A DNA stretch of 64,000 nt from a virus: IMG/VR virus record IMGVR_UViG_3300045988_161343. One strand, written 5' to 3'. Both the position numbers and the translations under genes were made by a program. Below the pieces are notes generated by a model. The model saw nothing but the letters and a program-made list of their open reading frames with translations, was not told the origin of the DNA and made no database searches. Below, one piece after another: positions 2,267-63,678 of the stretch. Position 1 is the stretch's first letter. Every line of letters begins with the position of its first letter.

Positions 2267-5200
2267 ACACTTATTTTAATTGTCATAACCATACTGATTA
2301 TTCGAACCTCCGTTTACTGGATTGTATAAATAAACCAGAAACTTTAATTGATAAAGCTATTGAATTAGGACTTTCGGGAATTGCTATCACAGATCACGAA
2401 AGTCTTTCTGCTCATATGACAGTAAATCAATATGCTAAAAAAATCAAAGAAAAATATCCAAATTTTAAAATAGCATTAGGCAATGAAATTTATTTAACTG
2501 ATGATAGAAGCACAGGACAAAAGTATTACCATTTTATTTTAATTGCTAAAGATGCTATAGGATATCGAGCATTAAAAGAATTAAGCTCAATTGCTTGGCA
2601 AAATTTATATGTTGATAGAAAAATGGAACGTGTTCCACTTTTAAAGAATGAATTAAAATCAGTAGTAGAGAAATATAAAGGACATTTAATTGCCACTACT
2701 GCATGTATTGGTGGAGAATTAGGTACTTGCCTTTTAAAGGCTGTAGAATATAAAGAACAAGAGAATAATTATGAATTATATCAAATTTTAAAACAAATAG
2801 ATACTTTTCTTACCTTCTGTCAAGATTTATTTGGTGAAGATTTCTATTTAGAGATTGCTCCATCGACCGCGGCAGATCAAAAACTTGTAAACCATATGAT
2901 TTATAAAATCGGTCATAAATATGGAATTAAAGTAGAAGTTGCTACCGATAGTCATTATTTAACAAAAGAAGATAGACCAATCCATAAGGCTTATCTTAAT
3001 TCAAAAGATGGAGAACGAGAAGTTGACAAATTTTATGAATTTGCTCATTTAATGACTTATGATGAAGTCTTTAAATTAATTGAACCTTGTTTTATTTACT
3101 TAGATATTGAAGAACAACCAGAAGAAATCGCAAAAGAAATTTTAAATAATACTCTTGAAATCCAAAATAAAATTGAAGATTTTTCGCTTGAAAGAAAACA
3201 AATAATTCCAAAAGTAGAGGTAACTGATTATCCTCAATCATTAACTGGTTGGTATGGTGAGCGTGAAGAGAAATATCCTGTTTTATGTAGCTTATTAATG
3301 AGCAACAATCCTCAAGAACGTTATTGGGTTAATGAATGTTATATGTCTTTATTGGAAAAGATGTATAATAAAAGTATTTCAGATGATAAGTTAGAAATTT
3401 ATTTAAGTCGTCTTGAAACTGAAGCTGATATTATAAAAGATATTGGTGAAAAATTAGATGACTGCCTTTTTGCTTATTTTAATACTTTTAAACATTATAT
3501 TGATTTGTTTTGGAATTGTGGCTCGATAGTAGGTCCAGGACGTGGTTCGGCCACTGGCTTTTTATCTAATTATTTGTTAGGTATTACTCAGCTTGATCCT
3601 ATAAGATGGGGTCTTCCTTATTGGCGTTTCTTAAACAAAGAACGTGCTGAATTACCTGATATTGATATTGATTTGGCTCCTTCAAAACGTCCAGCAATTT
3701 TTGAAGCTATTCGTAAAGAGCGTGGAGAGTTAGGTTTAATTCAGGTCGCTACATTTGGTACTGAAACTACTAAATCTGCTATTCTTACTGCTTGTAGAGG
3801 TTATAGGTCTGATAAATATCCAAATGGTATTGATGTAGATGAAGCTCAATATATGTCCTCTCTTATTCCACAAGAACGTGGATTCTTATGGGAAATTAAT
3901 GATGTTATTTATGGTAATGAAGAAAAAGATAGAAAGCCTGTTAAAACATTTATTAATAAAGTAAATGAATATCCAGGGCTTCTTGATATAATTATTTACA
4001 TTGGTGGTATCGTTAATAAACGTTCTTCTCATGCTTCTGGTGTTATTCTTTATGGCGATGATCCATATGATACAGCGGCATTTATGAGAACGCCTAGTGG
4101 CAGTTTAATTACTTGTTGGGATTTACATCAAGCTGAAGCAGCAGGTGATACGAAATATGATTTCCTTGTTACTGAAGCTTCTGATAAAATTATCACTTGT
4201 TATGAATTATTATTAAAGGCAAAAGAAATTCCTAACTTATCCTTAAGAGATTTTTATAATCAATATATTCATCCAGAAGTAATAGATACAACTGATCAAA
4301 AAATTTGGGATCATCTTGCCGCCGGAGATGTATTAGACTGTTTTCAATTTTCTACTGGTGTAGGATTAGCCATTGCTAAAAAATTAAAGCCACAAGATCC
4401 TATGGAAATGACCGCGGCTAATGCTATGATGCGTCTTATGTCTGAAAAAGGTAAGGAATCACAGCAAGATAGATTTTATCGTATTCAGCATCAAGGTATT
4501 CAAGCATTTGATCAAGAAATGAAACAACATCATTTGCCGCAAGAGCTTATTGATAAATTCCATAAGCATTGTGATAAATATTATGGTTGTTGCCCTTTAC
4601 AAGAGCAAATGATGGAAATCCTTATGGACATAGCACACTTTACATTGGGAGAAGCGAATTCTGCCCGTAAAGTTGTTGCTAAAAAACAAATGGCTAAAAT
4701 TCCTCAATTAAAAGAACAGGTATTTAGCCGTTTTGATAATAAAAATGATGCAGAATATTTTTGGGAAACGGCAGTAGCACCACAATTAGGATATGCGTTT
4801 TCATTAAATCATAGTCTACCTTATAGTTTTGTGGCTATTCAAATGATTTATTTTGTTATTCATTATAATCCTATCTATTGGAATTGTGCTTGTTTGATTG
4901 TTAATAGCGGTTCTTTAGAAGATAATAGCGAAGAAGAAATCGTAGATATTTATGATCCTGAAGCAGATGATTTAGCCAATGGTGTTACTTTTGAAGATTT
5001 GCCAGATAAAAAATCAAAAGTAAGAAAAACTAATTCTACTGATTATGGAAAGATTGCTAAGGCTATTGGAGACATTCGTAAAGCTGGTATTCAAGTAAGT
5101 CTTGCTGATATTAATAAATCAGAATTTAGTTTTATTCCTGATGTTGAAAATAATCAAATCCTGTTTGGCTTAAAAGGTATGCTAAATGTTGGTGATGATG

Positions 5201-14223: not shown

Positions 14224-14643
14224 TCAAGCCACCCTTTCTATAATAAGACTGGCATTTTCAACACTGATGGCAGAAGCACTGGTATTCTCAACACTTATCT
14301 ATTGGCAACATCCACGTGGAACATTTAAAAATAGAGCACGAGAAATACTATTAAACTATTCTACTGCGGTTGGAGTTGAAATCATTGTAGTTTCTGCAAC
14401 AGGCTCCCCATTAATAGCTATTGCCAAAGAAATAGGAGCTACAGTTGCACCAGTTGGAAGAGCTACATTAGCTCCAAAAGTAACCTTAAATCTGGCTCTA
14501 CATTGATTAGTTATGCCTCGTAAAGTTACTAATCCGCTACCTTCACGATGAACCATGGCGCAACTGCCTGGAACAGCGGTATTAGTAAACACTACATTAC
14601 CATTGGCATTTACCGTTTGTAAAGCATTAGCTGTTATTTCCAT
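14224..14643 (-). CDS. hypothetical protein (about 139 aa, 2 TAG), repeated ISVENxSA motif
   Basis: ORF 14356..14643 continues through TAG to TGA. Confidence 0.45.
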
Positions 14644-14663: not shown

Positions 14664-15515
14664 TTAAGCAGTATACTAGCATCCGCATCCAGTATAATTA
14701 GTCCCTGCATAAGGATTTTGAACAACATAAGCTGGGATAGGAGCTTTGCTGCTTAATTGGTCTATTAAATAAGCATTCTGTAAGTTTTGAGAAATCTGAC
14801 CTTTAAGAGTAGCATTTTCAGCAGTAAGAGTTTCAATCTTATCTTGAACAAGGAAGTCAAGGATAGAACGCATACTAGCATTAGTATTATCAATAATATC
14901 TCTTACTCCTTCATTAACTACTTGACGATTTTGACAAGCTTGACTTGCTAAATTATAGTTTAGATCAGCGAAGCTTGATGTAATAAGATTCTTATTCTCG
15001 CAGCAGCAATGAGCATTTGTTGCTGCCATATTATTTAATTGCTGAGAAAGAGCGTTTGTGTTCTACATATTAGCAATAGTATCAGCATTAATAGCTTGAG
15101 TAATACCAAAAGTATTCTACATAGCATTCATGCCTAAATTACTAATATCAGATTGCAAAGTACGAGCATTTCCATTTAAAGTTTCAGTAACGCCTGCAAA
15201 GCCAGTTAATAAATTATTATTAACGCCAGCAAAACCATTACATAAACCTGTCTGTAAAGAATTAATACCAGACTTAATGTCGCTTACATCAAAGCCATAA
15301 GTTAATTCTTCTCTTGTTGTAGTTCCCTGATATCCAGAACCATTGGTGCCATTACCCCAGCCATTTCCGCCCCAACCATTGAAGCAGAAAAGGAAGAGAA
15401 TAATTATCCATCATGCACCGTTACCCCACATGCCATCATCACCATTACGGTATCCATTACCGCCTGTGGCTGCGGCAATATCAGCTAAACTATAACCATT
15501 ACTTGTGTTGAACAT
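14664..15515 (-). CDS. Gly/Trp-rich membrane protein (about 283 aa) containing an in-frame TGA at codon 35 and 3 TAG
   Basis: RBS aaaggaggacatttatATG; MFNTSNGYSLADIAAATGGNGYRNGDDGMWGNGA-TGA-WIIILFLFCFNGWGGNGWGNG... continues in frame into ORF 14676..15029 and ends TAA; no alternative start for the downstream part. Confidence 0.35.
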
Positions 15516-15541
15516 ATAAATGTCCTCCTTTAATAAAAATA

Positions 15542-16385: not shown

Positions 16386-16793
16386 TTATTTTGTTTCTGT
16401 TGGAGTAATTTTATTTGTACTAACTTCTTTTTCAATTTTAGAAGAAATATATTCATTGAGATCTCCAACAGCAGAATTCAAATATTCAATAGCATCTTGA
16501 CCTAAAATAGCAATTACTTTATTATAAACATCAGTAAATGCTTTTTTCTGCGCTTCGCCATCAAATTTTCCTTGCTGTTTTAATGAATTAACATAAGTCT
16601 AATTCATTGCAATAACACAATCAGTAATTGTATTATCAAGCATATCTAAATATTTTTTAGCTAATTCGCTATCTGTTTGTTGCTTTAAAGCATCTTTTTT
16701 AGATTTAATCCAAGCAACTAAGAATGTCGTTAAAATTCCAAGTAAAGGAATAATACAAATTTGAAATATTTGCGCAATTAATTGAGCATCCAT
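16386..16793 (-). CDS. small membrane protein, possible holin-like (about 135 aa, 1 TAG)
   Basis: ORF 16599..16793 with N-terminal TM (IIPLLGILTTFLVAWI) continues through TAG to TAA; position next to tail-fibre genes. Confidence 0.4.
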
Positions 16794-30877: not shown

Positions 30878-30905
30878 AATGAGGAGGAAATTAATCCTCC
30901 TCATT
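30878..30905. terminator. hairpin between the tape-measure gene and the next tail gene
   Basis: aatgaggaggaaattaatcctcctcatt, then RBS and ATG of next gene. Confidence 0.4.
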
Positions 30906-33900
30906 TAGATTTATTTGCACTTATATATTGAGCCGCATTATTACTAAGATTAGACAATGCTTCTTCAATTTCATAATGATCAGTAACTCCTGGGAAGTCT
31001 GCTTGAATAGTAACTTCTTGCTTAATTGGCTAAGTTTCATAAACAGGTGGAGTAGTTTTATCAATTAAATTACCCAACTTTATCTATCCAAAATTAATCA
31101 TTGATTGCACTTGTTTATCAACCCAATCATTCATATTACGAACAATATCAACTGCACGAAGTATATTAGAAGTATCTTTTTGGTTAAGAATTAATTCTTT
31201 AGGATGGACTTTAATAATTTTACCATTATCAAGTCCAAAACCTTGTCCTTTAGCCCAATTACCAGTATAAGCACCAGAAGCAGCACCATTTCCGTTTAAA
31301 ATATCATCTAACCATTTTTCATCTTTTTCGCTAGTAATCTATTTCATTTCGTCTTTAGTCCAATAATCAGTACTAGAATCATTCTTTAATTCTTGACCCT
31401 CATTACGCATATTATCTAATTTTTCATTACGGGCTGTAACTACATCATCAATACTCGTCCAAACGTTACCATTTTTATCAACAACAGTACTTTCCCCATT
31501 CTTCATACGAATAGCAATAGCACTTAAATCAACACCAACTAAATTTCTAGCACCACTTCCGCCGCCACTACTGCCAAAGTTACCATCAATATACTATTCA
31601 TTCTTAGCTAACTCTTCATCAGTCCGCTTAGAATATTTCTATTCCCAATCAAGAACCATTCCAATAGACTAAGAAATATAGCCCATTAATACATTAACAA
31701 GCTCTTCAATTTCATCACACAATTTTTGAATATGTTCTTCAAGACTATCAAGAGTACCGCCCATATCAGAACCAAAGTTTTCCCAAGATGTACCAGCAAC
31801 ATTCATTGCTGCTTCAACAACTTTTTGCCAATCTTTATAATTGGTTTGTAATTCACTAATTGTAGTATTAGAATTATTAACAAATAACATATAAGCATCA
31901 TTATAATCATACAAATCAGTCATTTGGCCGTAGAGAGTATCATGGAATGTTAATCCACTATTTACAACACCTTTATTTAATTCATCAAGTAAATATCTTT
32001 GTCTTTCAACATAATATTCTTGTAATGATAATAACTAATTTGAATAATCAGCAGAATTCTTGTCAAGATCTTGTAATGCTTCTTTAAAATCAATTTGATT
32101 CTAAATTAACTATTCACTTACATCATTAATATAATCTTTGCTAAGCTATCCTAATTCATGAACAGCATCTTCATATTTCTATGTAGCATCTTCAATTTTT
32201 TCTTCATCTGCATCATAAGCATAAGTCCAGTTGCCTGCGGCATCACGCACTAAACGCATTGAAGTTTTGGAATTTTGTTGCTCCATAAGAGCTATTTCAG
32301 CAAGTTGTAAGTCATATTTCTTCTACAAATACTCAAGGTCATATTGGCTCATCTGGACGCCATCGGCCTGAAGATCGTGAATCTCTTGCTAAATGTCTCT
32401 AAGTTTTTGTTTAGCTAAAAGGTCATTAGTATCAGCCAGCTATAAATTTAGCTAACGATTTAATTTATTTAATTCATATAAGCGTTCGGCATCATCAAGA
32501 TATTCTTCATTGATAGTTTTTGCTTTTTCGTATTTGTCTTGGAAATCTTCAAGAGTTTCAAATGGTGATAATGCATTACTTAATACATTAACGGCCATTT
32601 CAACACGCATTTCAAATAAATCTTGAGCAGCTTCAAGTGTTTCTTCCCAAGAAGCTAAAAATTCGTCAGAAGCTTTTTCAGTTTCTTGTTTTAATACTTC
32701 AACTTGATTCTCCCAGAATTTAACAGAAGATGTATCACCATCAGCCTGACGATCAGCAAGTGCAGCCTATGCCTCTTTAGTTGCTTTAGCCAAACCATCC
32801 ATTTGTGCTTTTAAGGATTTCATTTTGCCTAACATTGTTTCTACCTTAGTAGCGCCAATCTAAGTTTTTAATCCCATATCAAGCATTGAACGGCCAGACA
32901 AATCAATAATATTATTAAGATGGTCAAGCATTGATGTATAAGTATCAAGACGTTCTATCTACTTATCAATTTCATCAAGGGCTAAGTCTAGAACATTCTA
33001 AACTAAATCTTCAATATCATTACGCAAGTCTAGAATAGCTTCATTAACATCTATCAAATCACTTTGATATTCAAGTATCTATTCATCGAACATTTGTTCA
33101 TAACCTGGATACTTAGCTTTCGCGGCGTTCAACTAATCAATACCCTAACGTAATGTAGCACCTTTATCAAAGAGCTATAACATTTCTTGCTCTTGGTAAG
33201 CAAATCCTTCAAGCATTGCTTCAATAGTTTGTTTATTACCATGGGCCTATTTAAGAAGTTTTTCTTGATAATAATTAAGACGTTTAATCTAATAATCAAT
33301 CTATTTAACTTTCCAATCAATAGCTTTTGTAATGGCTTCGAGTTCAAGTTCAGCAGCTTCTTTTTCTTTCTGAGCGATAAGAGCGACATTTTCATCAATG
33401 TTCTATTGAATACCCATAGGACCATCAAGACTATCTTTGATTTTAGTAAACCATTCATTCAGGTCTTCTTCACTCATGCCATCTTCAAGATTTTTTTGAT
33501 ACTAAGCCCAAACTTTACCCCATAGCTCAGAAGCATTAGCAATTTCACCATCATCAGTAAGTTTTATTTCAAACTCTGGATGCTCTTTATTAAATTCTTC
33601 TACTTTAAGTTTTAATAATTTTTTCCAAGATTTAATCTAATCTTCAAGAATATCTTGCTCTTCTTTTAATAATTTTATTTCTTCTTGAATATATTTAGCA
33701 GAGTCTTCAGGATTAGCTCCATCACGTAAAGCTTCAAGACGATCACGCTTCTTTTCTTTGGTTTTTAATAGTTCATCTTGAATTTCTTTACCAATATCAT
33801 TAGCGGATTTAGATTCAGAGCCGCCTCCGCCTCCTCCACCGCCTTTACTACCATCTTCAGTAGTTAAATATTTTCCACCGTCTCCTTGAGTGACAATAGA

Positions 33901-36900
33901 ATTTTCAGAAGCAACAGAAACTATATCACCAATTTGACTCTTTAAATTTCTTAATTTAGCAGCGTCATCAGATGTAAGTTCACTAATATCTTTACCACCC
34001 ATAATATCAGCCATCTGAGCAAAACATTCTAATAATTGCTATAGCTAATCAGTAGTGAAATGAATGCCTACTTGGCCCATAGCATTAATCCATCCGCACA
34101 TTTCTTCTAAAGAACCACTGATAGGAGTTATGGCAGCTAAAGCCTAAGAACCATCTGCTGTAATTCTACCATTAACTACAAATCCATCGTTCTAAGATAA
34201 AAGATTAGTTATTTCAGTTAATTTAGATTGAGCTTCAGTATATAATGTTGAAAAATCTAATTTTCCCGCAGATTCATTTATTTTTTCGATTAAACCACTA
34301 TCTACCTGAGAAAACATATCTAAGACTTGACCAGCTAAAGCTGCTTCATCATCATTACCCCATAAAAATTTTTCTATTAATGGTTGATTCATCTAATAAT
34401 CTGATTCAGAAAAATTAAATAAATCTTTTACTTTTTGTTTTAAATCAGCTTCTACTTCAGCAGTATCTTCACCTTCATCACGCAGCTCTTTATATTTTGT
34501 TTTTAATTCACTAATTTCTTTGGTAGCTTCTTTTATTTCATTATTACGTAAAGCATTATATAAATTATTAATAGCTTTTTGGGCGGCATTAGCATTATCT
34601 CCAGCCTACTCCATTTCATAATTATACTAATTTAAAGCTTCAGTATTACCTTCAATATCTTGATTTTTAGCAGCCCAACTTACTAAACCTTGCTAGCTAG
34701 CCTCATCCCCTAAATTAAAGCCTGTCATTTGATTCATTTCTTTTACTGAATTAGCATCAGTATAAGCATTAGTTCTTAATAAATCAGCATTATATGATCC
34801 ATCAATATTAGCCATATAAGCATCTATTATTCCTTGAATAATACCAGCCTAAGTAGCTGAGTCCTAACGTTTATAAAAATCTAAATCATAATTACCGGTT
34901 TCATCAGTACCAACTAATTTTGCTATTTCTTCAGGACTACCAAAAATATCTAGCATTTGCTACATATAACGGCCTCGAATATCTGTAAAATCTCCTGCAG
35001 CCATAGCTTCTAAGTTATTAGCATAATCATGTCCATTAATACCAATTCTAGTACCTAAATTAAACTAATTATTCCAATTTTCCTAAGCAGTTTCTGCAAC
35101 ATTATGCTATTCCTCAGCTCTATCTATTCCAGCCTAAGTTAAAGCATTTTTAGCAGCAGTATCAAAATCTTTAATTTTTACATAGGTATCCGGGCCAGTC
35201 TAAACATAATAATCTTCAGGATTTAATCCAGCAGCTTTAAAACCTTTAGTAATTTCATCATATTTTTCTTGAGTAATAGAACTACCAACTTCTTGACCCA
35301 TCAAATTAAAGATTTCAATTAACAAATCTCTAAAAGTAGTAAAATCTTCTATAGGCAATTTATTATTAGCAGTTTCTTGCATCATATCATAGAAGCCTTT
35401 CCAAGCTCCTTCATCATCTGATACAACAATACCTAAATCTTCTAGAGTATCAATAAATTCTTCCCAAGTTCCAGAAGACCAATCAAAATCAGCTATTTTA
35501 TTTAGCTAATCAAAAGTCAAATCTTTTCCTGCTGCATTAATAGCTTCAGTGAATGCTGCTACTCCATCTTTACCAGCTACTTTAAATATATCTTCAGCAA
35601 TCTAAGAAATACGAGATTTTAATGAAACACTGTATCCCTCAAATTCATCTATTGCCTTTGATATATCATCTTTATCTTCCAGACTTAATATATATTTAAA
35701 AGCTTTTTTATTACTTATATCTTCAATATTAGTAATCTAATGCGATGCTTCTTCTACTATAGCTTCACCTAATTCTTTACCGCTAGTTACGCCTAATTCT
35801 TTCATCATATTAGACATATATGATTTTACAGTTTCTTGCTATTCAGGCTCTAATATATTAAAATCTTTACCAAATAAACTCTATCCAATTAAATTCTATA
35901 AATCTTCATCTTCAAAGCCTTTTTCTATATTTGTTTTTAACTATTTAAGCTAATCTTGAGTAAAATTACTTAAATCACCATCATTGCCAAAAAATTCTAA
36001 AATACCTTGACCTATAATTCCTTGATTACTCATACCAGTCTAGAATTTTTGAGCCATAGCATAAGTAGTCTAAAGTTCTTCTCCCATAGCCTACATAGTA
36101 GCTATTTCAGTAGCAACTTTTGAGAATGATATAGTTTTTCCATTCTCTAATTGGAATGACCTATTCTAACCTTTACCAATTACAGAATTTTTCTAGTCTA
36201 ATTTATATTCGCTATCATTTTTATCAATTTTAGCTGCCTCTAAATAAGCATCCCATAAATTGCGTAAAGCTTGATCTCCTTTGCCAGCTCCACCAGCATT
36301 TTCATCGTGAGTTCCTATTTCTCGGTCTTTACCAGTGCCGTCATTCCAACTAATAGTTCCATTGTCATTATAAAAGCTATTTTTAATAGCTTCAATATTA
36401 GCATCTACTAAAGCAGTAGTTATTTTAGCATCTTCAGTAGACATAGTATCTAATCCAAGAGCCTATTGGACTGAAGCTTCTTTCGTAACCTATAATGTAG
36501 CATCAGTATTTGCTTGTATTACTTTTGAGACATTAGATATAGCAGCTTGAACATCATCAGTATTAAATTTATCTGCGATTTTCTAAGCATAATCATTTAA
36601 AGTCGTATTGTCATTGAGAGTTTCAAATCCGTTATTTTTTAATGCCTATTCGATAATACTAACTTGTTCTTCCTAACTTTTATTCTATAAATTTTCCTAA
36701 TTATTCAAAATTAAATCTGCTATACCTGGCATTACTGAAGTATATTGTCCATTTTTTGTTAATCCTCCAGTTGTAGTGCCACTCTAAATATTAAGAACAC
36801 CCTAAAGATTACTTGTTAAGTTCTATTTAGCTTTTTCAATATTTAAGTCTTCTAAATTGCTTTGTTCATTAGCTAGAGCATATTGCTATTGAAGAATCTA

Positions 36901-39900
36901 TTTATCATAAATAGACTATAATTTATCAACAGCACTTTGGTCTATCCAAATTTCACCAGTATCTTTCTTACCCCAAGCACCTTCCATATTCTTTAGCTCA
37001 GGATAAGTATTTAAAATATTAAGAGCTTCTTCATTAGCTTTAGTTAACTATGCACGCCATTCTTTAGTACCAACAGTACATTCATCTAAAGCAGATTTAA
37101 CAGAGCTATAACTATCAAATACTGATTTTAACTATTCAGCTTTATTCTTTGTTTCTTCTAACTAACTTTTAAAACTCTCAACAGCCTATTCAGAACGTTC
37201 AATTTGTTTTTCTATAGTAAAAGACTAAGCTGTATTATATACTTTAACCAATACAGCAATGGCAGCAACTACTGCTCCAATTATTAAAGCATATTTACCC
37301 AAAACAAGTAAAGATTTAGTAAACATTGCATGAGTTGCCGCACCACTAGCCGCTAATTGCTATTCAGCAGTTCCTGCAGAACCAGCAGCTACTCCTAATT
37401 CTTTAAGCTTGGCGGTATAAGCATCAAGACCAGTTTGCATAATTTTAGCTCTAAATCCAGAGCTATTCTCTATCTTTGTCTTTAAAGCTGCCTATAAATC
37501 AGAACCCTATAAAGACCCTCCTAAACCAGTCATTATTGATAAAATATTAGTACCTAGTCCCTTCCAATTAGTTCCAATTTCTTTTAATCCACTAGCTAAC
37601 TAATTTACTCCATTAATTAAAGAAGGAATAGCAAAACTGGCCGAAGTAATACTCTAAGTTAATTTTTCTCCAAAATCTAATTCGCTATTATTTAAAGTAT
37701 CAAACATTCCTTTTAAGCTATTAATTCCAATGCCTAATTGAGAAATACCCTAAAAACTAGAAACTAATCCTTGAGAAAAACTATATATAGATCCTTGACT
37801 AGCTTTTAATTCTGCGTTAAAAGCTTCAATAGCACTCTCATATTTTTCAACCGCTCCTTTGTTCTACAAAAGAGCCTCTTTCTCATTTACGTAATCTGTA
37901 AGACACTATCTTAAAGCATTAGACTAAGCTTTTGTTAATTTTTCTGCTTTAATTTTCTAATTAACATAATTATCAATTTCAAGATTAACGTCTCTTAAAT
38001 TATTAACTTCAGCTAATATATCTTTTCTAAGAGTACCTTTAGCACCATTACTTAGATTAGAATTGTTACCCTATTGAATTAACTAATTTAATTTACTATA
38101 TCTTTGATTATTTAAATCTAATTGACCAAATTGAGAAATAAAATCTTTAAAAGAACCATTTGAATTAATTTTTAAAGACTTTAAATCTTGCATTGTTTTA
38201 TCATTATAAAAATTATCAACAATCTTTTGGCCTTTTTTTAAGTTATTGTCAAAATAAATTACGCCCTTATCTCCACCAAATTTTTTATTATTATCTTCAA
38301 AAATTGTATTGCGAGCATTACGTAAATTGTTATTACTCTAAGTTTGTTGAGCTTCTATGCTTTTTTTAGATTCTATAGCTATTTGTCCATAAGCCTAAGA
38401 AATTTTTAATAATGTCTATAATCTTAATTTATCTGTTTCATTTAACTAATTATTTGCTAGCTATAAATCATAAGAAGCCTCTGCAGCTTTAACCATTGTA
38501 GTTGTTTCTAATTCAACTGAGCCCTATTTTGTTAAATCAGGTTTTTCTTCATAAGTTGTAAAGGTCTTTAAAACATTTATCATCTACTGCTTCATAACCG
38601 CAGCCTAATTTTCAGCAGCTCCGCTGTCAATAAACAAATTGGAAGCCATACGCTGCATATTATTTACAATATCAGGACCGAAGCTTTTTAGCATTAAAGT
38701 AGAAATAACACTTAATACACCAGGCAATCCGCCTAATGAATCAATCAATTTGCTTGTAATATTTAATGTATCACTTAATGTATCATTTAATCCGATAAAA
38801 AATTTATCACTAACTAATTGCTTATAAATTTCTTCAAGAGAAGCTTGTACTCGCTTTTTAGAAGCTTCCCAACTTTCAGCATAAATATCAGCTTGTTCTT
38901 GTAAAGTACCTTCAGAATTTTTAGCCACTCCAACTAGCTCTTTAAAATAATCTTTATTCTCCATAAGATTAACTAATTGAGTGTATTGACGAACACCACC
39001 AACAGTCTATGCAAGAGCCACTTGTTCAGCACGACTTAAACTATCCCACTTATTCATCATTTCATCAAGGATAGTATTCATATCTTTTAACTCACCCTAT
39101 TGATCTTTAATACTAATACCAACTTTTTCAAGGGCTTTAGAATATTTATTTAAATCAGTACCATCTTCAAGAGTTTCTCCAAGAGTCAGACCCTAAATAC
39201 GTGCAAATAAGGTTTTAAGGCTATTACCTACTGTATTCGCACTTTCACGTGTTTTAGCAGTTAATGTAGCTAATGCAGATGTAGCATATTCATAACTAAG
39301 ACCAATAGTATTAGCAACAGATGCGAATTTCTATATACCTTCTGAAATTTCATCAGTACTAGAAGCAGTATACGCACCAAGTTTAGTCATTACATCTGCA
39401 TAATACTCCAGAGATTTGCTACCATCATAGAAGTTATTCCAAACAGCAGTTAACTAATCAGATACTTTAGAAGCACTTTCACCTGCGGCGTTAGCCATTT
39501 TAATAGTAACTTCAGTACGATCAGTAACTTCTTTATCACTTAAACCCTATTGATAATAAATTAAAGAAGCATTAGTATAATTAGTAGTAGTTGTACTTAA
39601 TGCTTGAGCAGCCTTATTAGCTTTTTCAGCAAACTCAGCCATCTAATCATTATTCTATCCAGTAACTATACGAATATCATTTAATGATCTATTTAAATCT
39701 TCTGCATAATAGTAAGCTTTCTATAAAGAACCCTATACTCCATGCATTAAGTTAGATGAAATTTGCCATTTGGCTGTATTAGCTAATGTCTTTTTAAAAT
39801 TATCTAATATAGCGTTAGTTCTTTTTAAAGGAACTTCAGCATTAATAACAGACTATGCTAATGCAACAAATGCTTTATCACCTGTTGGGCCTAGATTCTC

Positions 39901-40212
39901 TAAGTGTGTAGCAAAATCCTAAAGAGTATAACCACTCTAGCTTAAACTCTTTGAAAATTTTGATAAATCTAAACGCCCAGTATTAACATTAGTCGCCTAA
40001 TCTAAAGCAATTTTTAACTCCTAAACTGCTGCCGAGGCTTCATCTATTTCTTTTTTAGTGGCATTAACATCAAAAAATTTAATATTTTTTGTTGCTATCT
40101 AATTCATTAAAGTATCTAATGAACTTTGTAAATCTCGTAATTGCTATTTAGCTTGACCTGTATCAGCTGTAAATCGCATATTAACATTATAATTAGCACT
40201 GTTATTAGCCAT
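30901..40212 (-). CDS. tail tape measure protein, about 3103 aa, about 96 in-frame TAG, no TAA/TGA
   Basis: RBS aaaggagctattttATG at 40212; one phase links ORFs 38605..38964, 36193..36444, 35200..35385, 34192..34392, 33637..34014, 31669..31923 to TGA at 30901-30903; TMP-like N-terminal motif WDSLSRAEQVALA-TAG-TVGGVRQY; Gly-run GGGGGGGG. Confidence 0.65.
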
Positions 40213-40256
40213 AAAATAGCTCCTTTCTCTCATTATAAATTTCTATATATATAAAG

Positions 40257-40289
40257 AAAAGGCGAGAGGAACAAAGCCTCTCGCCTTTT
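40257..40289. terminator. rho-independent terminator upstream of the tape-measure gene (bidirectional)
   Basis: aaaaggcgagaggaacaaagcctctcgcctttt. Confidence 0.6.
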
Positions 40290-57682: not shown

Positions 57683-58120
57683 ATGAAGTTTGTCCATGGG
57701 CTTCTTTTAGGTACTGGGGCGGCATTTGGTTTAGGATGTGCAGCCAGATTTATTTATGATAAAATTATTGAAGCAAAAATCTATAAAGATTATACTAAAG
57801 CGCTTGAAGATTTTATGAATTTTAAAAGCGATAAAAAATATATTGAATATAATAAAGGGCTAGAAGAAAAATATATTGGGCCTGGAATAGTCCATGTCAT
57901 TAAAAATAAAAAAGATTTAATGTCTATTGATTTATCTAAATACGAAGAAGAGGGTGATCCAATCGGCATTACTCTTGGTTCTAAAATTGTAGATAAGGAA
58001 GACCAATATATTATACCTGAAGTAGAAGTTTATAAATTTAAAAATGGATATACTAATTATCGATTCCATCAAGAACGAGGAGTAATTGATCCTAATGAAG
58101 GCATTGTTCCTTTTGACTAA
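57683..58120 (+). CDS. membrane-anchored protein (145 aa)
   Basis: RBS gaaggaagtgatttaATG; N-terminal hydrophobic GLLLGTGAAFGLGCAA. Confidence 0.5.
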   Translation: MKFVHGLLLGTGAAFGLGCAARFIYDKIIEAKIYKDYTKALEDFMNFKSDKKYIEYNKGLEEKYIGPGIVHVIKNKKDLMSIDLSKYEEEGDPIGITLGSKIVDKEDQYIIPEVEVYKFKNGYTNYRFHQERGVIDPNEGIVPFD

Positions 58121-58225
58121 TTTATGAAAAAATTTTTGACATGAGATAAAAAATTTTGTAAAATAAATTATAAAATTTGTGGGATGGCTCGCACTCTCCC
58201 AATTAAAAAGAAAGGAGTGAGTTGA

Positions 58226-58453
58226 ATGCTGAAAACAGCTTATACAAGAAAACTCGATACAGTTGGACGTTTAATGATTCCTTCTAAGCTTCGTGAAGAA
58301 TTGCATATGGTAAATGGTCATAATTATGAATTTTATATTGACGAAGTAGATGGTAAAACTTTTTTATGTATTGAATGTCCTGAAGCTAGTGATGCCGTAG
58401 CTCTTGCAAAAGAAACGTTGGAATAGAATGGGTATCGAGTAATTAAGGAATAA
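58226..58453 (+). CDS. AbrB/SpoVT-family (swapped-hairpin) transcriptional regulator (about 75 aa, 1 TAG near C-terminus)
   Basis: RKLDTVGRLMIPSKLREEL matches the AbrB N-domain GRVVIP.ELR signature; RBS gaaaggagtgagttgaATG; ORF 58226..58426 reads through TAG to TAA. Confidence 0.65.
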
Positions 58454-58459
58454 AATTAA

Positions 58460-58499
58460 AGCGGGAAAATATTTTCCCGCTTATTTTTTTTTATTTTTT
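58460..58499 (+). terminator. strong rho-independent terminator
   Basis: agcgggaaaatattttcccgct followed by T-rich run. Confidence 0.7.
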
Positions 58500-58627
58500 G
58501 AAATATCGTTATTTAAAATTTAAATTATTTTCCGTTTTCTGAAATTAAAAATGAGTTTAGAAATTATTTTGCCAGGTAGGAAGATTTATCCATTTTTTCC
58601 ATTTTTTTTACACGAAACCCTGCCCCC

Positions 58628-58692
58628 CCGCTTCACTTGACTAAAGTGTTAAAGTCTATTGTCTTACTTTACTTGAGTGAAGCAAGTTAGAT
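58628..58692. repeat. inverted repeat gcttcacttgac...cttgagtgaagc flanked by C-runs
   Basis: Read directly; sits at the compositional boundary. Confidence 0.3.
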
Positions 58693-58737
58693 ACGACTAA
58701 CCCCCAAAAAAAATATTTCGATTTTTGAAAAAAAGTA

Positions 58738-58771
58738 GTTGACATTTTCGGGCATAGGTGCTATTCTATAA
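58738..58771 (+). promoter_or_regulatory. sigma70-like promoter copy 1 (TTGACA then tgcTATTCTATAAT) with A-tract upstream element
   Basis: gtagttgacattttcgggcataggtgctattctataat. Confidence 0.4.
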
Positions 58772-58848
58772 TCAGAAATTGACCACAGGACAACGCAAGC
58801 AAGGCAAAACGCCAAGCGAAAAAAATTCAAGAAATTTTGAAAAAAGTT

Positions 58849-58877
58849 CTTGACAAGCCGGAAGTCCTATGGTACAA
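58849..58877 (+). promoter_or_regulatory. sigma70 promoter copy 2: TTGACA-17-TGgTACAAT (extended -10) with similar A-tract upstream element
   Basis: gttcttgacaagccggaagtcctatggtacaat; upstream attttgaaaaaagttc repeats the element before copy 1. Confidence 0.5.
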
Positions 58878-58883
58878 TGAGTA

Positions 58884-59138
58884 CAACGAAGCAAGGGAAA
58901 CACAAACAACGCAAGCCCTTGCAAGTGTAGTAGAATGACCGGAAACAGGCCGAAGCACCGAGCGGCGTTGAACATTGACAAGTGAATCTAAGCCGAGCGT
59001 CTGCACCACATAGCGGACGCAATGGTAGAGCATAGAAAGTGTGGTGCAAGCGGTAGGGCAATCCAACGCCTACGGCAGATAGTAACACGGATAGGTGACA
59101 ACTAACAGTCGAATAATATGTAAAGGATTGGTAAAATC
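58884..59138 (+). ncRNA. about 255-nt GC-rich structured leader or candidate ncRNA, no plus-strand ORF
   Basis: Hairpins gcaaggg...cccttgc and tgcaccaca...tgtggtgca; repeated acaacgcaagc motifs; only antisense spurious ORFs in the track. Confidence 0.25.
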
Positions 59139-59273
59139 ATGGTATATGCAATTAAAACAAGCGAACAGGACAAACAGAAAGCAATCAAGATAGAGTTAGC
59201 AGAGCAAGCTGACGATATCGTAAAATATGTCAAACAGTACCATATGTAAGGCAATAGCTTCGACTATGATGGT

Positions 59274-59543
59274 ATGCTGGACAAGTATCATGAGTATGCG
59301 GCGAAGAATATTCAGCAATGGGATAACCTTACATGGGCTATTCATAGTGCTGAATATGACTTGGAGCATACCGACTATAATATGGATATGGAAGCCGGCA
59401 ACCCATGTGTCGCATATGAGGCCGCATATGAGAAGCTGACGGACTTGCAAGATGAGGCCGAGGAATGGGCGGATATCTTTGAGCATATGCTCGAAGACTT
59501 CTTCTACAAACTGCACGACTTGCTATATGGTGAAGAAGCATAA
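59274..59543 (+). CDS. hypothetical acidic protein (89 aa)
   Basis: Intact ORF, TAA stop. Confidence 0.5.
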   Translation: MLDKYHEYAAKNIQQWDNLTWAIHSAEYDLEHTDYNMDMEAGNPCVAYEAAYEKLTDLQDEAEEWADIFEHMLEDFFYKLHDLLYGEEA

Positions 59544-59599
59544 GCTTCTTCACCCATCCACCAACCAACCAACTAACAATATATGGAGGTATAATTATT

Positions 59600-59935
59600 A
59601 TGACCAGAACCAATAGAAGAGCTATCCGTAAGGACGCTATGCAGAACACTATCATCCGCATTAACAATGCCATGGGCAAGGTCAATTTCTCTGACCCTAA
59701 TGGCAAGGCCACCTTTCATAAACTGATGGACCAGAAAGACTATATCGCACAACAGATCGCCGAAGCAAGCTACACCGAATACTCGATGAAAAGTGACCAT
59801 CGGGAGCTGAAGCGTATTTTCGCTCATATGGATGAAGGTGGTTGTGCTGACTGGGTCAAGTGGGATATCGAGCAGCTGGCAGCAAGTCGGCGTCGCTGGT
59901 CTATCGCAACAAGCAAGCAAATCTGGTTGGGCTAA
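59600..59935 (+). CDS. hypothetical protein (111 aa)
   Basis: RBS tatggaggtataattattATG; intact ORF. Confidence 0.5.
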   Translation: MTRTNRRAIRKDAMQNTIIRINNAMGKVNFSDPNGKATFHKLMDQKDYIAQQIAEASYTEYSMKSDHRELKRIFAHMDEGGCADWVKWDIEQLAASRRRWSIATSKQIWLG

Positions 59936-59968
59936 TTGCCCAACCAGACCACAGAAAGGGGATAACAT

Positions 59969-60158
59969 TATGTACACTATCTATAATCACACGACTGGCC
60001 AGTATGGCATTATCTACCATAGCCTTATCGCAGCACGGTCTATGGCTCATGCTTACAGCCTATGGGCAAAGAATGACAGAGATGTCATTGATATGCAAAC
60101 TGGTGAAGTCATGAGCACATTCGAGAAAGGCAAAGAAACTTACAGAGCCAAGGGTTAA
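59969..60158 (+). CDS. hypothetical small protein (63 aa)
   Basis: RBS aaaggggataacattATG inside ORF 59832..60158; followed by hairpin ccaagggttaaaacccttgg. Confidence 0.45.
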
Positions 60159-60192
60159 AACCCTTGGCTCCCAATAGAAAGGATGATACAAT

Positions 60193-60492
60193 ATGGCAAC
60201 TGCACGAAATCCCTATGCTGAAATCCGTTTTCTTGATAAGAACAATGTTCAAACTGATTATTGCAGATGGCAATTATCCAGCACATTCAACTGCCCTTGG
60301 CAGCCTGCCTTCTACCGCGAACTTGAAGAAAAGCTCTACATCATGCAGGAACTGGAAATCGTAGGGTTTGGCAGTCGGTCTGCGGTATTTACTTCTGGTC
60401 TGCTAACTACCTACCATTTTACAAGCTATCAGATTGTACAGGCAATCGAGCATACAGCCGACCACCTGACGTTAGTGGTGAGGGACATTTGA
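60193..60492 (+). CDS. hypothetical protein (99 aa)
   Basis: RBS aaaggatgatacaatATG; TGA stop. Confidence 0.5.
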   Translation: MATARNPYAEIRFLDKNNVQTDYCRWQLSSTFNCPWQPAFYRELEEKLYIMQELEIVGFGSRSAVFTSGLLTTYHFTSYQIVQAIEHTADHLTLVVRDI

Positions 60493-60560
60493 GTCCCTCT
60501 ACCGCTTTCTGACAATTCAACCGAGCACATGAATCCAAAAGTCGAAAGGAAAATTTCAAA

Positions 60561-60713
60561 ATGAAAAATCTCAAACTCGCGTTAACATTATCTGGCATAA
60601 TTATTATGCTCTGGATTTCTGTTTCATTTTGTCAGGTGGTCCGCCATAATAATCCTGCTGGCGGCAGACCTGAATACAGTAGTTGGAATTTCTTCGTGAT
60701 GATGGAGGATTAA
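60561..60713 (+). CDS. small membrane protein (50 aa)
   Basis: RBS gaaaggaaaatttcaaaATG; LTLSGIIIMLWISVSF hydrophobic. Confidence 0.4.
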   Translation: MKNLKLALTLSGIIIMLWISVSFCQVVRHNNPAGGRPEYSSWNFFVMMED

Positions 60714-60714
60714 A

Positions 60715-60900
60715 ATGAAAAATCAACATAGCGAAGTCATTAAAATGTTCAATGACCATACTCAGGAGATTATAGAGGAGGCGTTCGATGACCCTATTGA
60801 CGCCGACTACTATGAATACCATTTGGATTTACTTGAGATCCACTACCAGAGATACAGCCGCGGCGAGCTGCTGTACGAAGAAAATAAACCGGAGGGCTGA
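60715..60900 (+). CDS. hypothetical acidic protein (61 aa)
   Basis: Intact ORF; TGA stop inside terminator hairpin ggagggctgaaaagccctcc (60891-60910). Confidence 0.5.
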   Translation: MKNQHSEVIKMFNDHTQEIIEEAFDDPIDADYYEYHLDLLEIHYQRYSRGELLYEENKPEG

Positions 60901-60933
60901 AAAGCCCTCCACCAATAGAAAGGAATTGATAAT

Positions 60934-61245
60934 ATGATAAACATTCGCACAATCAAGAAACTGGCTGACGGCGATGGTCTGACACTCAAAAATGGAAAAA
61001 TCAAGAGGTACAAGAGTGGCTATCAGGTAGCTACTAATGGCGTCGAGGTCATCAGTCCTGAAATGGCAATACAGGCAGTTCGAGAATTCAAAGGCACTTG
61101 CGGCATTTGGCTTGAAAATGGCAGATACTACATTGACATTTCTAAACGAGTCAGCACAAAACGCGAAGCAGTTGAAATTGGCAAGAAATGTAATCAACTT
61201 TCAATTTACAGATGGCGTGGAAATCCTACATGTCTTTACATTTAA
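60934..61245 (+). CDS. hypothetical protein, paralog A (103 aa)
   Basis: MINIRTIKKLADGDGLTLKNGKIKRYKSGYQV...; RBS aaaggaattgataatATG. Confidence 0.5.
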   Translation: MINIRTIKKLADGDGLTLKNGKIKRYKSGYQVATNGVEVISPEMAIQAVREFKGTCGIWLENGRYYIDISKRVSTKREAVEIGKKCNQLSIYRWRGNPTCLYI

Positions 61246-61267
61246 TATTTGAGAGGAGAAATAAAAA

Positions 61268-61588
61268 ATGATTAACGTGAGAACTATTCGGAAAATGCAG
61301 GACGGCGATACCCTGAACCTTAAGAACGGCAATATCAAAAAGTACAAGGGCGGTTTTCAAGTGAATACCGCCACAGTTATCCTTGACACTCCAGAAAAAG
61401 CAATCGAATGGATGAAACGTTTGACTCGGAATTTTGGAAAGAGCTGCCAGATTCGTTTCAAAGATGAAAAGTATTATGTCAGCCTGACCGAGCATACCTA
61501 CACGCGGCGGCAGGCAAGAGAAGTTGCAAGCGAACATCTTCAGGGCATTATTTACGATTGGAATAATCTGGCACACCAGGCAGTTTAA
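61268..61588 (+). CDS. hypothetical protein, paralog B (106 aa)
   Basis: MINVRTIRKMQDGDTLNLKNGNIKKYKGGFQV...; same N-terminal architecture as the gene 23 nt upstream. Confidence 0.5.
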   Translation: MINVRTIRKMQDGDTLNLKNGNIKKYKGGFQVNTATVILDTPEKAIEWMKRLTRNFGKSCQIRFKDEKYYVSLTEHTYTRRQAREVASEHLQGIIYDWNNLAHQAV

Positions 61589-61591
61589 TCC

Positions 61592-61734
61592 CGAAATCCC
61601 AGGAGTTGGTAATCCCAATTCCTGGGATGAATATTTATTCATTTTCTTTAATTCATTATCCCTTTAATCAAATGAATTGCCTCGCCGGGGCGTGGCGAAA
61701 TTGATATATCCGCAGCAAGCTCGCCACGCCCCGC
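61592..61734 (+). terminator. two tandem hairpin terminators (tcccagga...tcctggga and gccggggcgtggcga...tcgccacgccccgc)
   Basis: Read directly downstream of paralog B. Confidence 0.5.
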
Positions 61735-61892
61735 ATTTTCCATTTAATACCAATTCTGAATATTTCCAGCCAAATTCTACCATATCTGGTATTATGTTCC
61801 ATTTCCCATATCCTACCAGCTTATGGTATATAATTCCATACTAAATGTTTCCAGAATCTTTGTGCATATTGACGAATAAAAAAATTTGACTT

Positions 61893-61926
61893 TTCTATTG
61901 ACATTTACCATAGGGTGTGCTATTAT
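61893..61926 (+). promoter_or_regulatory. sigma70-like promoter TTGACA-17-TATTAT(ATAAT)
   Basis: ttgacatttaccatagggtgtgctattatataat. Confidence 0.45.
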
Positions 61927-61974
61927 ATAATTGTTCCAAGGGAACAGATAAAAAATGAAATGGAGATACAAAAA

Positions 61975-62139: not shown

Positions 62140-62143
62140 CATC

Positions 62144-62486: not shown

Positions 62487-62516
62487 AAAGCCCTCTTCCA
62501 AAAGGAGGAAATTAAA

Positions 62517-62840: not shown

Positions 62841-62842
62841 AA

Positions 62843-63070: not shown

Positions 63071-63076
63071 TAAAAA

Positions 63077-63289: not shown

Positions 63290-63299
63290 TTTCTATTTG

Positions 63300-63652: not shown

Positions 63653-63678
63653 ATCCAAGAGGAAAGGAACTGATTAAA

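What the first reader, a model, noticed from the sequence alone, without database searches (positions are those of the whole stretch)
14664..15515. In-frame TGA inside a Gly/Trp-rich membrane protein gene
After a strong RBS, the frame reads 34 codons, then TGA, then continues about 245 codons (WIIILFLFCF TM segment, GWGGNGWGNG repeats, CCC motif) to TAA, with no alternative start for the downstream part. Elsewhere in the window TGA terminates genes at sensible positions, which argues against general TGA recoding.
Basis: seen in the sequence. Interest (0 to 1): 0.5.

Follow-up and report, generated by a model that had tools for sequence, protein, structure and literature searches.

The report
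Natural premature stop in phage gene
The in-frame TGA is real, but it is a naturally circulating premature stop at a normally invariant tryptophan codon of a dispensable gut-phage gene, not a new way of reading the genetic code.

Summary
On the minus strand an ATG at 15515 with an AAGGAGG ribosome-binding site is followed by 34 codons, TGA at 15413-15411, then 248 open codons to TAA at 14666-14664.

In all 112 full-length homologues the TGA position is TGG, the first Trp of an invariant Trp-Trp pair. TGA is a normal stop here. It ends 14 of 46 large ORFs, and the next gene's conserved C-terminus ends in TGA or TAA depending on the strain. No other TGA in the 64 kb has coding sequence on both sides.

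It is not an assembly error. The same TGA occurs in other samples, on several haplotypes and in three clades. The gene also carries other independent disruptions:
- TGA at Trp53;
- a +1 frameshift;
- three different deletions;
- one allele with two stops.

Best reading: a recurrent nonsense allele of a non-essential late gene. Any full-length protein would need rare tRNA-Trp readthrough, which is inferred, not shown.

Side finding: in over 300 related contigs a group I intron with an HNH homing endonuclease sits 2 nt downstream of the mutated base. Interest is low to moderate.

The parts
15524..15530 (-). Shine-Dalgarno sequence AAGGAGG, 8 nt upstream of the start codon
   Evidence: Read directly from the sequence
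15414..15515 (-). First 34 codons of the gene (MFNTSNGYSLADIAAATGGNGYRNGDDGMWGNGA). This is the only product if TGA terminates.
   Evidence: This exact 34-aa product is called on 13 public contigs.
15411..15413 (-). Premature opal codon TGA at codon 35. Orthologues have TGG (Trp), the first of an invariant Trp-Trp pair. The changed base is window 15411.
   Evidence: for TGG in orthologues. for the same TGA in other samples.
14667..15410 (-). Remaining 248 codons of the gene, intact. They include a hydrophobic anchor (WIIILFLFCF), a Gly/Trp/Asn-rich linker, long predicted helices, the CCC motif and a Cys-rich tail.
   Evidence: AlphaFold model, low confidence: pLDDT 59
15117..15119 (-). In-frame TAG at codon 133, read as Gln. 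It is CAG in strain L122.
15063..15065 (-). In-frame TAG at codon 151, read as Gln. It aligns with Q in NMQNTNAL.
14676..14678 (-). In-frame TAG at codon 280. Public code-15 gene calls read it as Gln (…GCGCQYTA).
14664..14666 (-). True stop codon TAA, followed by a second TAA
15409..15410 (-). Empty insertion site of a group I intron that carries an HNH endonuclease, between T and GG of codon 36. It is occupied in many relatives. The mutated base lies 2 nt upstream of it.
14224..14643 (-). Next gene downstream (PHROG 20016). Its conserved end …LIIERVA is followed by TGA here and by TAA in many relatives, which shows TGA acts as a stop.
16386..16793 (-). Holin-family gene three genes upstream in the same late-gene block
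   Evidence: phrog_13712, E = 5e-29

Best explanation
The TGA is a genuine single-base substitution, TGG to TGA (G to A on the coding strand, window base 15411). It converts the first Trp of an invariant Trp-Trp pair into an opal stop.

The gene is a late, non-essential one of a roughly 185-kb TAG-to-Gln recoded gut phage. It belongs to PHROG 16490, has no known function, and is predicted to be membrane-anchored and largely helical.

In this phage TGA is an ordinary stop. Ribosomes therefore mostly terminate after 34 residues, and the allele is a knock-out or a strong knock-down. The downstream frame is still intact because the mutation is young.

The gene is a hotspot for disruptive variants in natural populations. 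Within the first 120 codons, the five TGG codons are the only ones that a transition can turn into TAA or TGA.

Shown: the substitution, its reality, its recurrence, and TGA acting as a stop. Inferred: the gene is dispensable. Also inferred: any residual full-length protein comes from rare near-cognate decoding of UGA by tRNA-Trp, which would restore the wild-type sequence.
For: 1. Orthologues have TGG.
- 12 GenBank homologues.
- 29 IMG/VR relatives.
- 12 contigs at 95-98% gene identity.
- W35 and W36 are invariant in a 45-sequence alignment and in 112 of 112 full-length homologues.

2. TGA acts as a stop.
- It ends 14 of 46 ORFs of at least 120 aa.
- The neighbouring gene ends …ERVA plus TGA in six strains (this window and five relatives) and plus TAA in 23 relatives.
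- The long ORFs, bounded by TAA/TGA, hold 260 in-frame TAGs.
- This is the only TGA with coding-like sequence on both sides.

3. It is not an error.
- L121 (ENA ERZ27250463) is identical to the window.
- L122 (ERR11570017) and L124 (SRR31239973) carry the same TGA on diverged backgrounds.

4. The same gene is disrupted independently many times.
- TGA at the equivalent codon in a 76%-identity clade (L139 and L140).
- An intron-bearing allele, L145, with that TGA plus a CAA-to-TAA stop near codon 119.
- TGA at Trp53 in four contigs on at least two haplotypes.
- A +1 G frameshift in a G run.
- Three different deletions.
- As controls, products truncated at nine non-Trp codons and at the Trp48 codon are absent from the collection.

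5. No readthrough signal: the fold z-score is -0.46.

6. tRNA-Trp is the main near-cognate reader of UGA in E. coli (PMC11903333).
Against: - The downstream ORF shows no decay in the window. Two W35-TGA strains differ by 15 synonymous changes and 1 non-synonymous change. Two clade-2 TGA strains differ at 24 nt with a single amino-acid difference. This would also fit continued translation. Most of these differences, however, are standing variants shared with TGG strains, and private changes are too few to test.
- Among full-length genes no missense variant of W35 or W36 was seen, only TGG or TGA. A Trp-restoring leaky stop tolerated better than missense would give the same pattern.
- Dispensability is inferred from deletion and nonsense variants in assemblies. 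It has not been tested by growth.
- Read-level allele frequencies could not be examined.
Confidence: 0.68

Rival explanations
1. Functionally sufficient leaky stop. UGA35 is decoded as Trp by tRNA-Trp often enough to keep the protein working. TGG to TGA would then behave as a near-synonymous or expression-lowering change that selection tolerates or favours.
For: - Only TGG or TGA is ever seen at this codon; 112 of 112 full-length homologues keep WW.
- TGA recurs at W35 and W53 with intact downstream frames.
- Differences between TGA-bearing strains are almost all synonymous.
- Trp is the main residue inserted at UGA by near-cognate decoding (PMC11903333).
Against: - The alleles are rare, roughly 1% of sampled genomes, and young, with 1-3 private changes each.
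- L145 carries a second stop.
- Frameshift and deletion alleles show that loss of the gene is tolerated.
- The UGA-U context and the lack of a downstream structure give no sign of stimulated readthrough.
- In clade 2 the same mRNA ends in a functional TGA.
Confidence: 0.15
2. Escape from a homing endonuclease or intron. The G-to-A change lies 2 nt upstream of the insertion site of a widespread group I intron that encodes an HNH endonuclease. It would be selected because it makes the intron-less allele resistant to cleavage or invasion. Trp has no synonymous codon, so TGA would be the least damaging change available.
For: - The intron with its HNH_3 ORF occupies exactly this site in more than 300 contigs of close relatives.
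- The joined exons equal the intron-less TGG allele, and the window differs only at position -2.
- The P1 guide sequence covaries with the exon.
- In phage PhiKZ, escape mutants to the PhiPA3 intron endonuclease changed the base 2 nt upstream of the insertion site or its 5' neighbour, within one conserved codon (bioRxiv 10.1101/2023.09.30.560319).
- A clade-2 deletion has its breakpoint inside this codon, and many contigs end there.
Against: - L145 carries both the intron and the TGA.
- TGA at W53, the frameshift and two other deletions are unrelated to the intron site.
- W35 is one of only five transition-accessible nonsense sites in the first 120 codons, so coincidence is plausible.
- No copy of the intron or the endonuclease is in the window.
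- Cleavage specificity is untested.
Confidence: 0.1
3. Sequencing or assembly error: the true sequence is TGG.
For: It is a single-base difference from all close relatives, and the reads cannot be inspected here.
Against: The identical TGA is found in independent assemblies made from different runs with different assemblers. It also lies on diverged backgrounds and in a second and a third clade.
Confidence: 0.02
4. General TGA-to-Trp reassignment, or a phage-encoded opal suppressor acting alongside the TAG-to-Gln recoding.
For: The codon replaces Trp, as in genetic code 4. The phage already recodes TAG. About 110 kb of the genome outside the window and the fetched flanks was not searched for tRNAs.
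Against: - TGA terminates 14 of 46 large ORFs, including late genes full of in-frame TAG.
- TGA and TAA alternate at a conserved C-terminus.
- There is one in-frame TGA against 260 in-frame TAGs in the long ORFs.
- No tRNA was found in the window or in about 40 related loci.
Confidence: 0.02
5. Two products by design. A 34-aa peptide is made, and a separately initiated downstream protein arises by re-initiation at a non-canonical codon just after the stop.
For: In-frame ATA and ATT codons follow the TGA immediately.
Against: - There is no Shine-Dalgarno sequence and no ATG, GTG or TTG before codon 120.
- All orthologues are single uninterrupted genes.
- The arrangement is not conserved.
Confidence: 0.03

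Closest known systems
Natural nonsense (opal) polymorphisms and pseudogenisation of accessory phage genes
   Same: A single G-to-A change turns a conserved TGG into TGA. It is rare in the population. It sits beside frameshift and deletion alleles of the same gene, and one allele (L145) has accumulated a second stop.
   Different: It recurs at the same codon in three clades and on several haplotypes. It lies in a phage where TAG is no longer a stop, so TGG codons are the main transition route to an early stop.
TAG-to-Gln (genetic code 15) recoded gut phages (bioRxiv 10.1101/2021.08.26.457843; Peters et al. 2022, PMC9523058; abstracts only)
   Same: The window shows hundreds of in-frame TAGs in late structural genes, aligning with Gln or CAG in relatives. 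TAA and TGA remain stops.
   Different: That recoding concerns TAG. The TGA studied here is not part of it, and no suppressor tRNA lies inside this 64-kb window.
Near-cognate decoding of UGA by tRNA-Trp (E. coli data in PMC11903333; low-level UGA-to-Trp readthrough in Bacillus subtilis, recalled from memory)
   Same: If the stop leaks, the inserted residue would be Trp, which reproduces the wild-type protein exactly.
   Different: Nothing here indicates enhanced leakiness. There is no conserved context, no structure and no conservation of the stop. The efficiency in the unknown host is not known.
Escape mutations from intron-encoded homing endonucleases (PhiPA3 gp210 against PhiKZ, bioRxiv 10.1101/2023.09.30.560319)
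   Same: A point change 2 nt upstream of a mobile-intron insertion site, within a highly conserved codon.
   Different: Resistance is untested here. One allele carries both the intron and the TGA, and similar TGA variants occur away from the intron site.
Phage group I introns with HNH nicking endonucleases, such as I-HmuI of SPO1 and I-BasI of Bastille (recalled from memory). This applies to the relatives' insertion, not to the window.
   Same: The 5' exon ends in U, which pairs with G of an internal guide. The intron ends in G. The paired core is conserved with compensatory changes. An HNH_3 ORF sits in a peripheral loop, and the insertion is at an invariant codon pair.
   Different: No Rfam model matches it. 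The host gene is a small protein of unknown function rather than a DNA-metabolism gene. The endonuclease ORF itself contains in-frame TAG codons.

Membership tests
Premature-stop (nonsense) allele of an otherwise intact gene | Orthologues carry a sense codon at the position and form one uninterrupted ORF | tested here: met
   TGG in every full-length homologue examined
Premature-stop (nonsense) allele of an otherwise intact gene | The codon functions as a terminator elsewhere in the same genome | tested here: met
   TGA ends 14 of 46 ORFs of at least 120 aa. TGA and TAA alternate after the conserved …ERVA end of the neighbouring gene.
Premature-stop (nonsense) allele of an otherwise intact gene | The substitution is real in the DNA, not an artefact | tested here: met
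   The same allele occurs in independent assemblies and on diverged backgrounds. Read-level support was not testable.
Premature-stop (nonsense) allele of an otherwise intact gene | Translation actually ends at the stop, giving a truncated product | not testable with these tools
   This needs proteomics or ribosome profiling.
Genetic code 4-type reassignment (TGA = Trp) | TGA is frequent in-frame at conserved Trp positions across many genes | tested here: not met
   One coding-flanked TGA in 64 kb, against 132 TGG and 260 in-frame TAG in the 13 longest ORFs
Genetic code 4-type reassignment (TGA = Trp) | TGA is not used as a terminator | tested here: not met
Programmed stop-codon readthrough | The stop codon is conserved among orthologues | tested here: not met
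   The stop is absent from more than 100 orthologues. It is present only as rare, young alleles.
Programmed stop-codon readthrough | A stimulatory 3' context or downstream RNA structure | tested here: not met
   The 111-nt fold around and downstream of the stop has z = -0.46 against shuffles. The context is UGA-U.
Selenocysteine insertion at UGA | A SECIS-like hairpin directly downstream, and Cys or Sec at the position in homologues | tested here: not met
   Homologues have Trp. No significant hairpin and no Rfam hit.
Genetic code 15 phage (TAG = Gln); applies to the window as a whole | In-frame TAGs in conserved genes that align with Gln codons in relatives | tested here: met
   ORF coverage doubles when TAG is treated as sense. 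TAG133 is CAG in L122. TAG aligns with Q in homologues.
Genetic code 15 phage (TAG = Gln); applies to the window as a whole | A phage-encoded suppressor tRNA with a CUA anticodon | tested here: inconclusive
   None in the window or the fetched loci. About 110 kb of the genome was not examined.
PHROG 16490 (unknown function) | A significant profile match across the protein | tested here: met
   E = 6e-35, residues 6-133, spanning the TGA
Group I intron (the insertion seen in relatives at this codon pair) | The 5' exon ends in U paired to G of an internal guide sequence, and the intron ends in G | tested here: met
   GCATGGT | intron …AATG | GGATAA. Guide GCCAUG pairs with exon CAUGGU, and guide GCCAAU pairs with exon AUUGGU in L117.
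Group I intron (the insertion seen in relatives at this codon pair) | A conserved paired core supported by covariation | tested here: met
   RNAalifold consensus of 7 copies, with compensatory changes in the 3' hairpins. Helix naming was done by eye only.
Group I intron (the insertion seen in relatives at this codon pair) | A match to a curated group I covariance model | tested here: not met
   No Rfam hit at the gathering threshold or at E <= 10
Group I intron (the insertion seen in relatives at this codon pair) | Self-splicing activity | not testable with these tools
   This needs in vitro splicing or RT-PCR.

The most novel reading that the evidence does not exclude
In a phage where TAG is already sense, TGG-to-TGA changes in this gene are not knock-outs. 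They would be Trp-restoring leaky stops that act as the only 'synonymous' option for the single-codon amino acid Trp. That would let the phage alter the DNA of an invariant Trp-Trp motif, which is the homing site of a very active HNH-endonuclease group I intron, or turn the protein's dose down, while still making wild-type protein.
Probability: 0.1. Interest if true: 0.6.

Novelty: already known. Interest (0 to 1): 0.27.

Why it matters
For genome scanning, the case shows how to tell a true recoding signal from a nonsense allele. Here TAG read as Gln is pervasive and conserved. The lone TGA is unique in the genome, absent from orthologues, and sits beside other knock-out alleles.

Biologically it marks this small late gene, near a holin, as conditionally dispensable and repeatedly inactivated in human-gut phage populations. 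That pattern is expected of genes under fluctuating selection, for example targets of host defence or of selfish elements.

The side finding is probably of more interest than the TGA itself. A highly prevalent group I intron with an HNH endonuclease targets the invariant Trp-Trp codons, and its endonuclease ORF can only be translated in the TAG-recoded state.

Tried and rejected
- Frameshifting. The +1 and -1 frames around GCA-TGA-TGG both hit TAA within a few codons, and the downstream ORF is in the zero frame. Rejected.
- Other interrupted genes. Same-frame ORF pairs at 51120 and 57571 looked interrupted, but they simply start with GTG and TTG after good ribosome-binding sites.
- Rfam. Nothing at the gathering threshold for the window, L020 or L040. 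Only noise in E-value searches of the intron and of 57.5-64 kb.
- tRNA search. None found in the window or in about 40 related loci. I did not walk the remaining ~110 kb of the genome.
- Structure prediction. The model had low confidence (pLDDT 59, pTM 0.22), so I ran no fold search.
- Selection test on substitutions private to TGA alleles. The counts are tiny, and their non-synonymous share is no different from that of intact alleles. It has no power.
- Contig-end argument. My first idea was that contigs ending inside codon 35 prove within-sample TGG/TGA polymorphism. This rests on an ascertainment-biased look-up and I left it open. In clade 2 the ends coincide with a deletion breakpoint instead.
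- Genome-collection scan. The exact 20-mer gave one match, in a Polaribacter genome, which I did not examine and assumed to be chance.
The 29-aa product that would indicate a stop at Trp30 is too short to look up.

Full report
**1. What is in the sequence**

The gene lies on the minus strand. AAGGAGG (15530-15524) is followed 8 nt later by ATG at 15515. Then come 34 codons, TGA at 15413-15411, and 248 further codons ending in TAA TAA at 14666-14661.

The first possible in-frame restart codons are TTG at codon 120 and ATG at codon 129.

**2. The window is a TAG-recoded phage**

- GC content is 30.5%.
- Treating TAG as sense raises coverage by ORFs of at least 100 aa from 0.51 to 1.13 of the window length. 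It also yields very long minus-strand late genes, for example a 3129-aa ORF with 114 TAGs.
- Within this gene, TAG133 and TAG151 align with Gln in homologues (…NMQNTNAL…). TAG133 is CAG in a near-identical strain.
- Public gene calls for close relatives are 283-aa proteins with Q at these positions.
- Ribosome-binding sites are of the GGAGG type. Relatives are 100-200-kb contigs encoding DNA polymerase III alpha, NrdD/NrdG and dUTPase. A neighbouring protein's fragment is filed in NCBI under a Clostridiales MAG.
- These points suggest a Firmicutes host; that is an inference.
- The window is identical to ENA ERZ27250463 contig k119_68296 wherever the two fetched loci overlap it. By their coordinates it corresponds to about nt 76300-140299 of that contig.

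**3. What orthologues have at the TGA**

PHROG 16490 (unknown function) aligns across the stop. Every homologue examined reads Trp-Trp before the hydrophobic segment, and the window's TGA replaces the first TGG:
- 12 GenBank phage homologues;
- 29 IMG/VR relatives at 61-98% amino-acid identity;
- 12 contigs at 95-98% nucleotide identity;
- the public protein collection.

W35 and W36 are invariant in a 45-sequence alignment and in 112 of 112 full-length homologues.

**4. TGA is a normal stop in this phage**

- The adjacent downstream gene (PHROG 20016) ends at the conserved …LIIERVA. This is followed by TGA in the window and five relatives, and by TAA in 23 others.
- Of 46 non-overlapping ORFs of at least 120 aa, 32 end in TAA and 14 in TGA. 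The TGA group includes the largest late genes.
- Only one TGA in the window has codon usage like that of real genes on both sides, and it is this one.
- No tRNA was found in the window or in the related loci.
- The RNA around and downstream of the stop folds no better than shuffled sequence (z = -0.46).

General TGA recoding, selenocysteine insertion and structure-stimulated readthrough are therefore not supported.

**5. It is not an error, and it is not unique**

An exact look-up of the 34-aa product found 13 contigs.
- L121 is identical to the window.
- L122 (Logan ERR11570017) carries the same TGA but differs at 16 positions in the gene, 15 of them synonymous. Its tail-fibre region is very different.
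- L124 (SRR31239973) carries the TGA on a background 4.3% diverged from the window. That background is closer to TGG-bearing strains.

In a second clade (76% amino-acid identity) L139 and L140 have GGA GCA TGA TGG ATT. They come from different samples and differ from each other by 24 nt. L139 is closer to a TGG-bearing relative (14 nt) than to L140.

In a third clade L145 has the TGA together with the intron described below. It also has a second stop, CAA to TAA near codon 119.

**6. The gene is a hotspot for disruption**

- Four contigs on at least two haplotypes carry TGA at Trp53 (GGC TGA GGT) with the rest of the frame intact.
- Twenty-one contigs carry the 31-aa product. In the three complete ones examined it comes from a +1 G in the run TGGGGT at codons 30-31.
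- Three different deletions remove the gene:
  - from codon 78 to the end of the next gene (L078 and P0168);
  - from codon 19 into the third gene downstream (P0166 and P0177);
  - a 1.5-kb deletion in clade 2 whose left breakpoint is GCAT|, inside the codon-35 equivalent. Four clade-2 contigs shown, each from a different sample, end at that very base.
- As controls, products truncated at codons 30, 32, 33, 36, 37, 38, 40, 45 and 47 are absent from the collection.

In the first 120 codons there is no CAA, CGA or TAG. The five TGG codons are therefore the only places where a transition creates TAA or TGA (read from the sequence). This explains why early stops fall on Trp codons without invoking special decoding.

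**7. Does the TGA allele still make protein?**

This cannot be settled here. Substitutions private to disrupted alleles are few: six distinct synonymous and three non-synonymous changes. Their non-synonymous share does not differ from that of intact alleles.

The intact downstream frame and the mostly synonymous differences between TGA strains largely reflect variation shared with TGG strains.

If the stop leaks, tRNA-Trp is the expected decoder, and it would restore the wild-type residue (PMC11903333). The efficiency in this host is unknown.

**8. A mobile intron at the same codons**

In L020, L026 and L040 a roughly 229-nt insertion lies between T and GG of codon 36. In more than 300 contigs of close relatives the insertion is about 760 nt and encodes a 159-aa HNH_3 protein.

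It has the hallmarks of a group I intron:
- the 5' exon ends in U;
- the intron ends in G;
- a guide sequence GCCAUG pairs with exon CAUGGU and changes to GCCAAU where the exon is AUUGGU;
- the paired core is conserved, with compensatory changes in the 3' hairpins.

Rfam does not recognise it. Copies of the family also interrupt other genes, including a topoisomerase-like gene.

The joined exons are identical to the intron-less TGG allele. The window differs from that homing site only at position -2. Escape mutants of PhiKZ to an intron endonuclease changed the base 2 nt upstream of the insertion site or its 5' neighbour, so an escape role for the TGA is conceivable.

Three results weaken that idea:
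- L145 has both the intron and the TGA;
- the W53 stops, the frameshift and two of the deletions are unrelated to the site;
- the window holds no copy of the intron or its enzyme.

**9. What the protein is**

It has a short N-terminal segment, an 11-residue hydrophobic stretch, a Gly/Trp/Asn-rich linker, two long predicted helices and a Cys-rich tail. The AlphaFold model has low confidence (pLDDT 59).

The gene lies three genes downstream of a holin-family gene. Its function remains unknown. The many natural knock-outs imply an accessory role; that is an inference.

**10. Verdict**

The finding is a real, recurrent premature opal stop in a dispensable late gene of a TAG-recoded gut phage. It is ordinary in kind: a nonsense polymorphism. 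It is not a recoding event and not an artefact.

Two more interesting readings remain possible but unsupported: a Trp-restoring leaky stop, and escape from a homing endonuclease.

Noticed in passing
whole window, e.g. 16807-57571 (-): The window is a TAG-to-Gln (code 15) recoded phage. There are 260 in-frame TAGs in the 13 longest ORFs and 114 in one 3129-aa ORF (30901-40287). No tRNA gene lies in the 64 kb.
   Followed up: partly
L131-L138 around 3107-3870; L020, L026, L040 around 3107-3335; empty site in the window between 15410 and 15409: A group I intron sits between T and GG of the second Trp codon of this gene in more than 300 public contigs. The 760-nt form encodes a 159-aa HNH_3 endonuclease. 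Versions of 449 nt and 229 nt lack an intact endonuclease ORF. Rfam has no matching model.
   Followed up: partly
L131 3329-3808: The intron's HNH endonuclease ORF itself contains in-frame TAG codons (…TPQPNG…, …KTQVNH…, …SNQENR…). It can therefore only be made once TAG is being read as Gln.
   Followed up: no
L112, L113, L116, L118, L119 (IMG/VR contigs): The same intron family interrupts other phage genes, including one encoding …MRYPLIHGQ… (topoisomerase or gyrase-like). Two copies lie in one genome (IMGVR_UViG_3300013426_000017). The 5' guide sequence differs to match each exon.
   Followed up: partly
L150-L153 (codon 53 of the same gene): Independent TGG-to-TGA variants at Trp53 (GGC TGA GGT) occur in four contigs from different samples, on at least two haplotypes. 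The rest of the ORF is intact.
   Followed up: yes
L156-L158 (codons 30-31 of the same gene): A +1 G in the run TGGGGT shifts the frame. An upstream ATG in the new frame (MVMMVCGGNGAWW…) keeps a 260-aa ORF open, so a truncated product may still be made.
   Followed up: partly
L078; P0166, P0177 and P0168; L146; L141-L144: Three different natural deletions remove this gene and its neighbours. The clade-2 deletion starts exactly at GCAT| inside the codon-35 equivalent. Four clade-2 contigs examined, from different samples, end at that same base, and the product ending there is indexed in 54 blocks of the collection, which hints at DNA breakage or a rearrangement hotspot.
   Followed up: partly
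L145 (Logan ERR13953492): An intron-containing allele in a third clade has TGA at the same Trp codon and also CAA to TAA near codon 119. It looks like a decaying pseudogene that still hosts the intron and endonuclease.
   Followed up: yes
window 58000-64000: GC rises to 37-41%, against about 30% elsewhere, and the strand switches. Under TAG-sense translation no ORF longer than about 235 codons is seen here. The best-looking candidates are small plus-strand ORFs read under the standard code, including two paralogues (60934-61245 and 61268-61588). It is probably an early-gene block.
   Followed up: partly
window 51119 and 57571 (-): Two genes that look N-terminally open start with GTG (after TAAGGAGGATTTATA) and TTG (after GGAGGTATTAATC). 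The first follows the preceding gene's TAA in the same frame.
   Followed up: yes
window 14224-14226 (-) and relatives: The stop codon of the PHROG 20016 gene alternates between TGA and TAA among close strains. In clade 2 the studied gene itself normally ends in TGA.
   Followed up: yes
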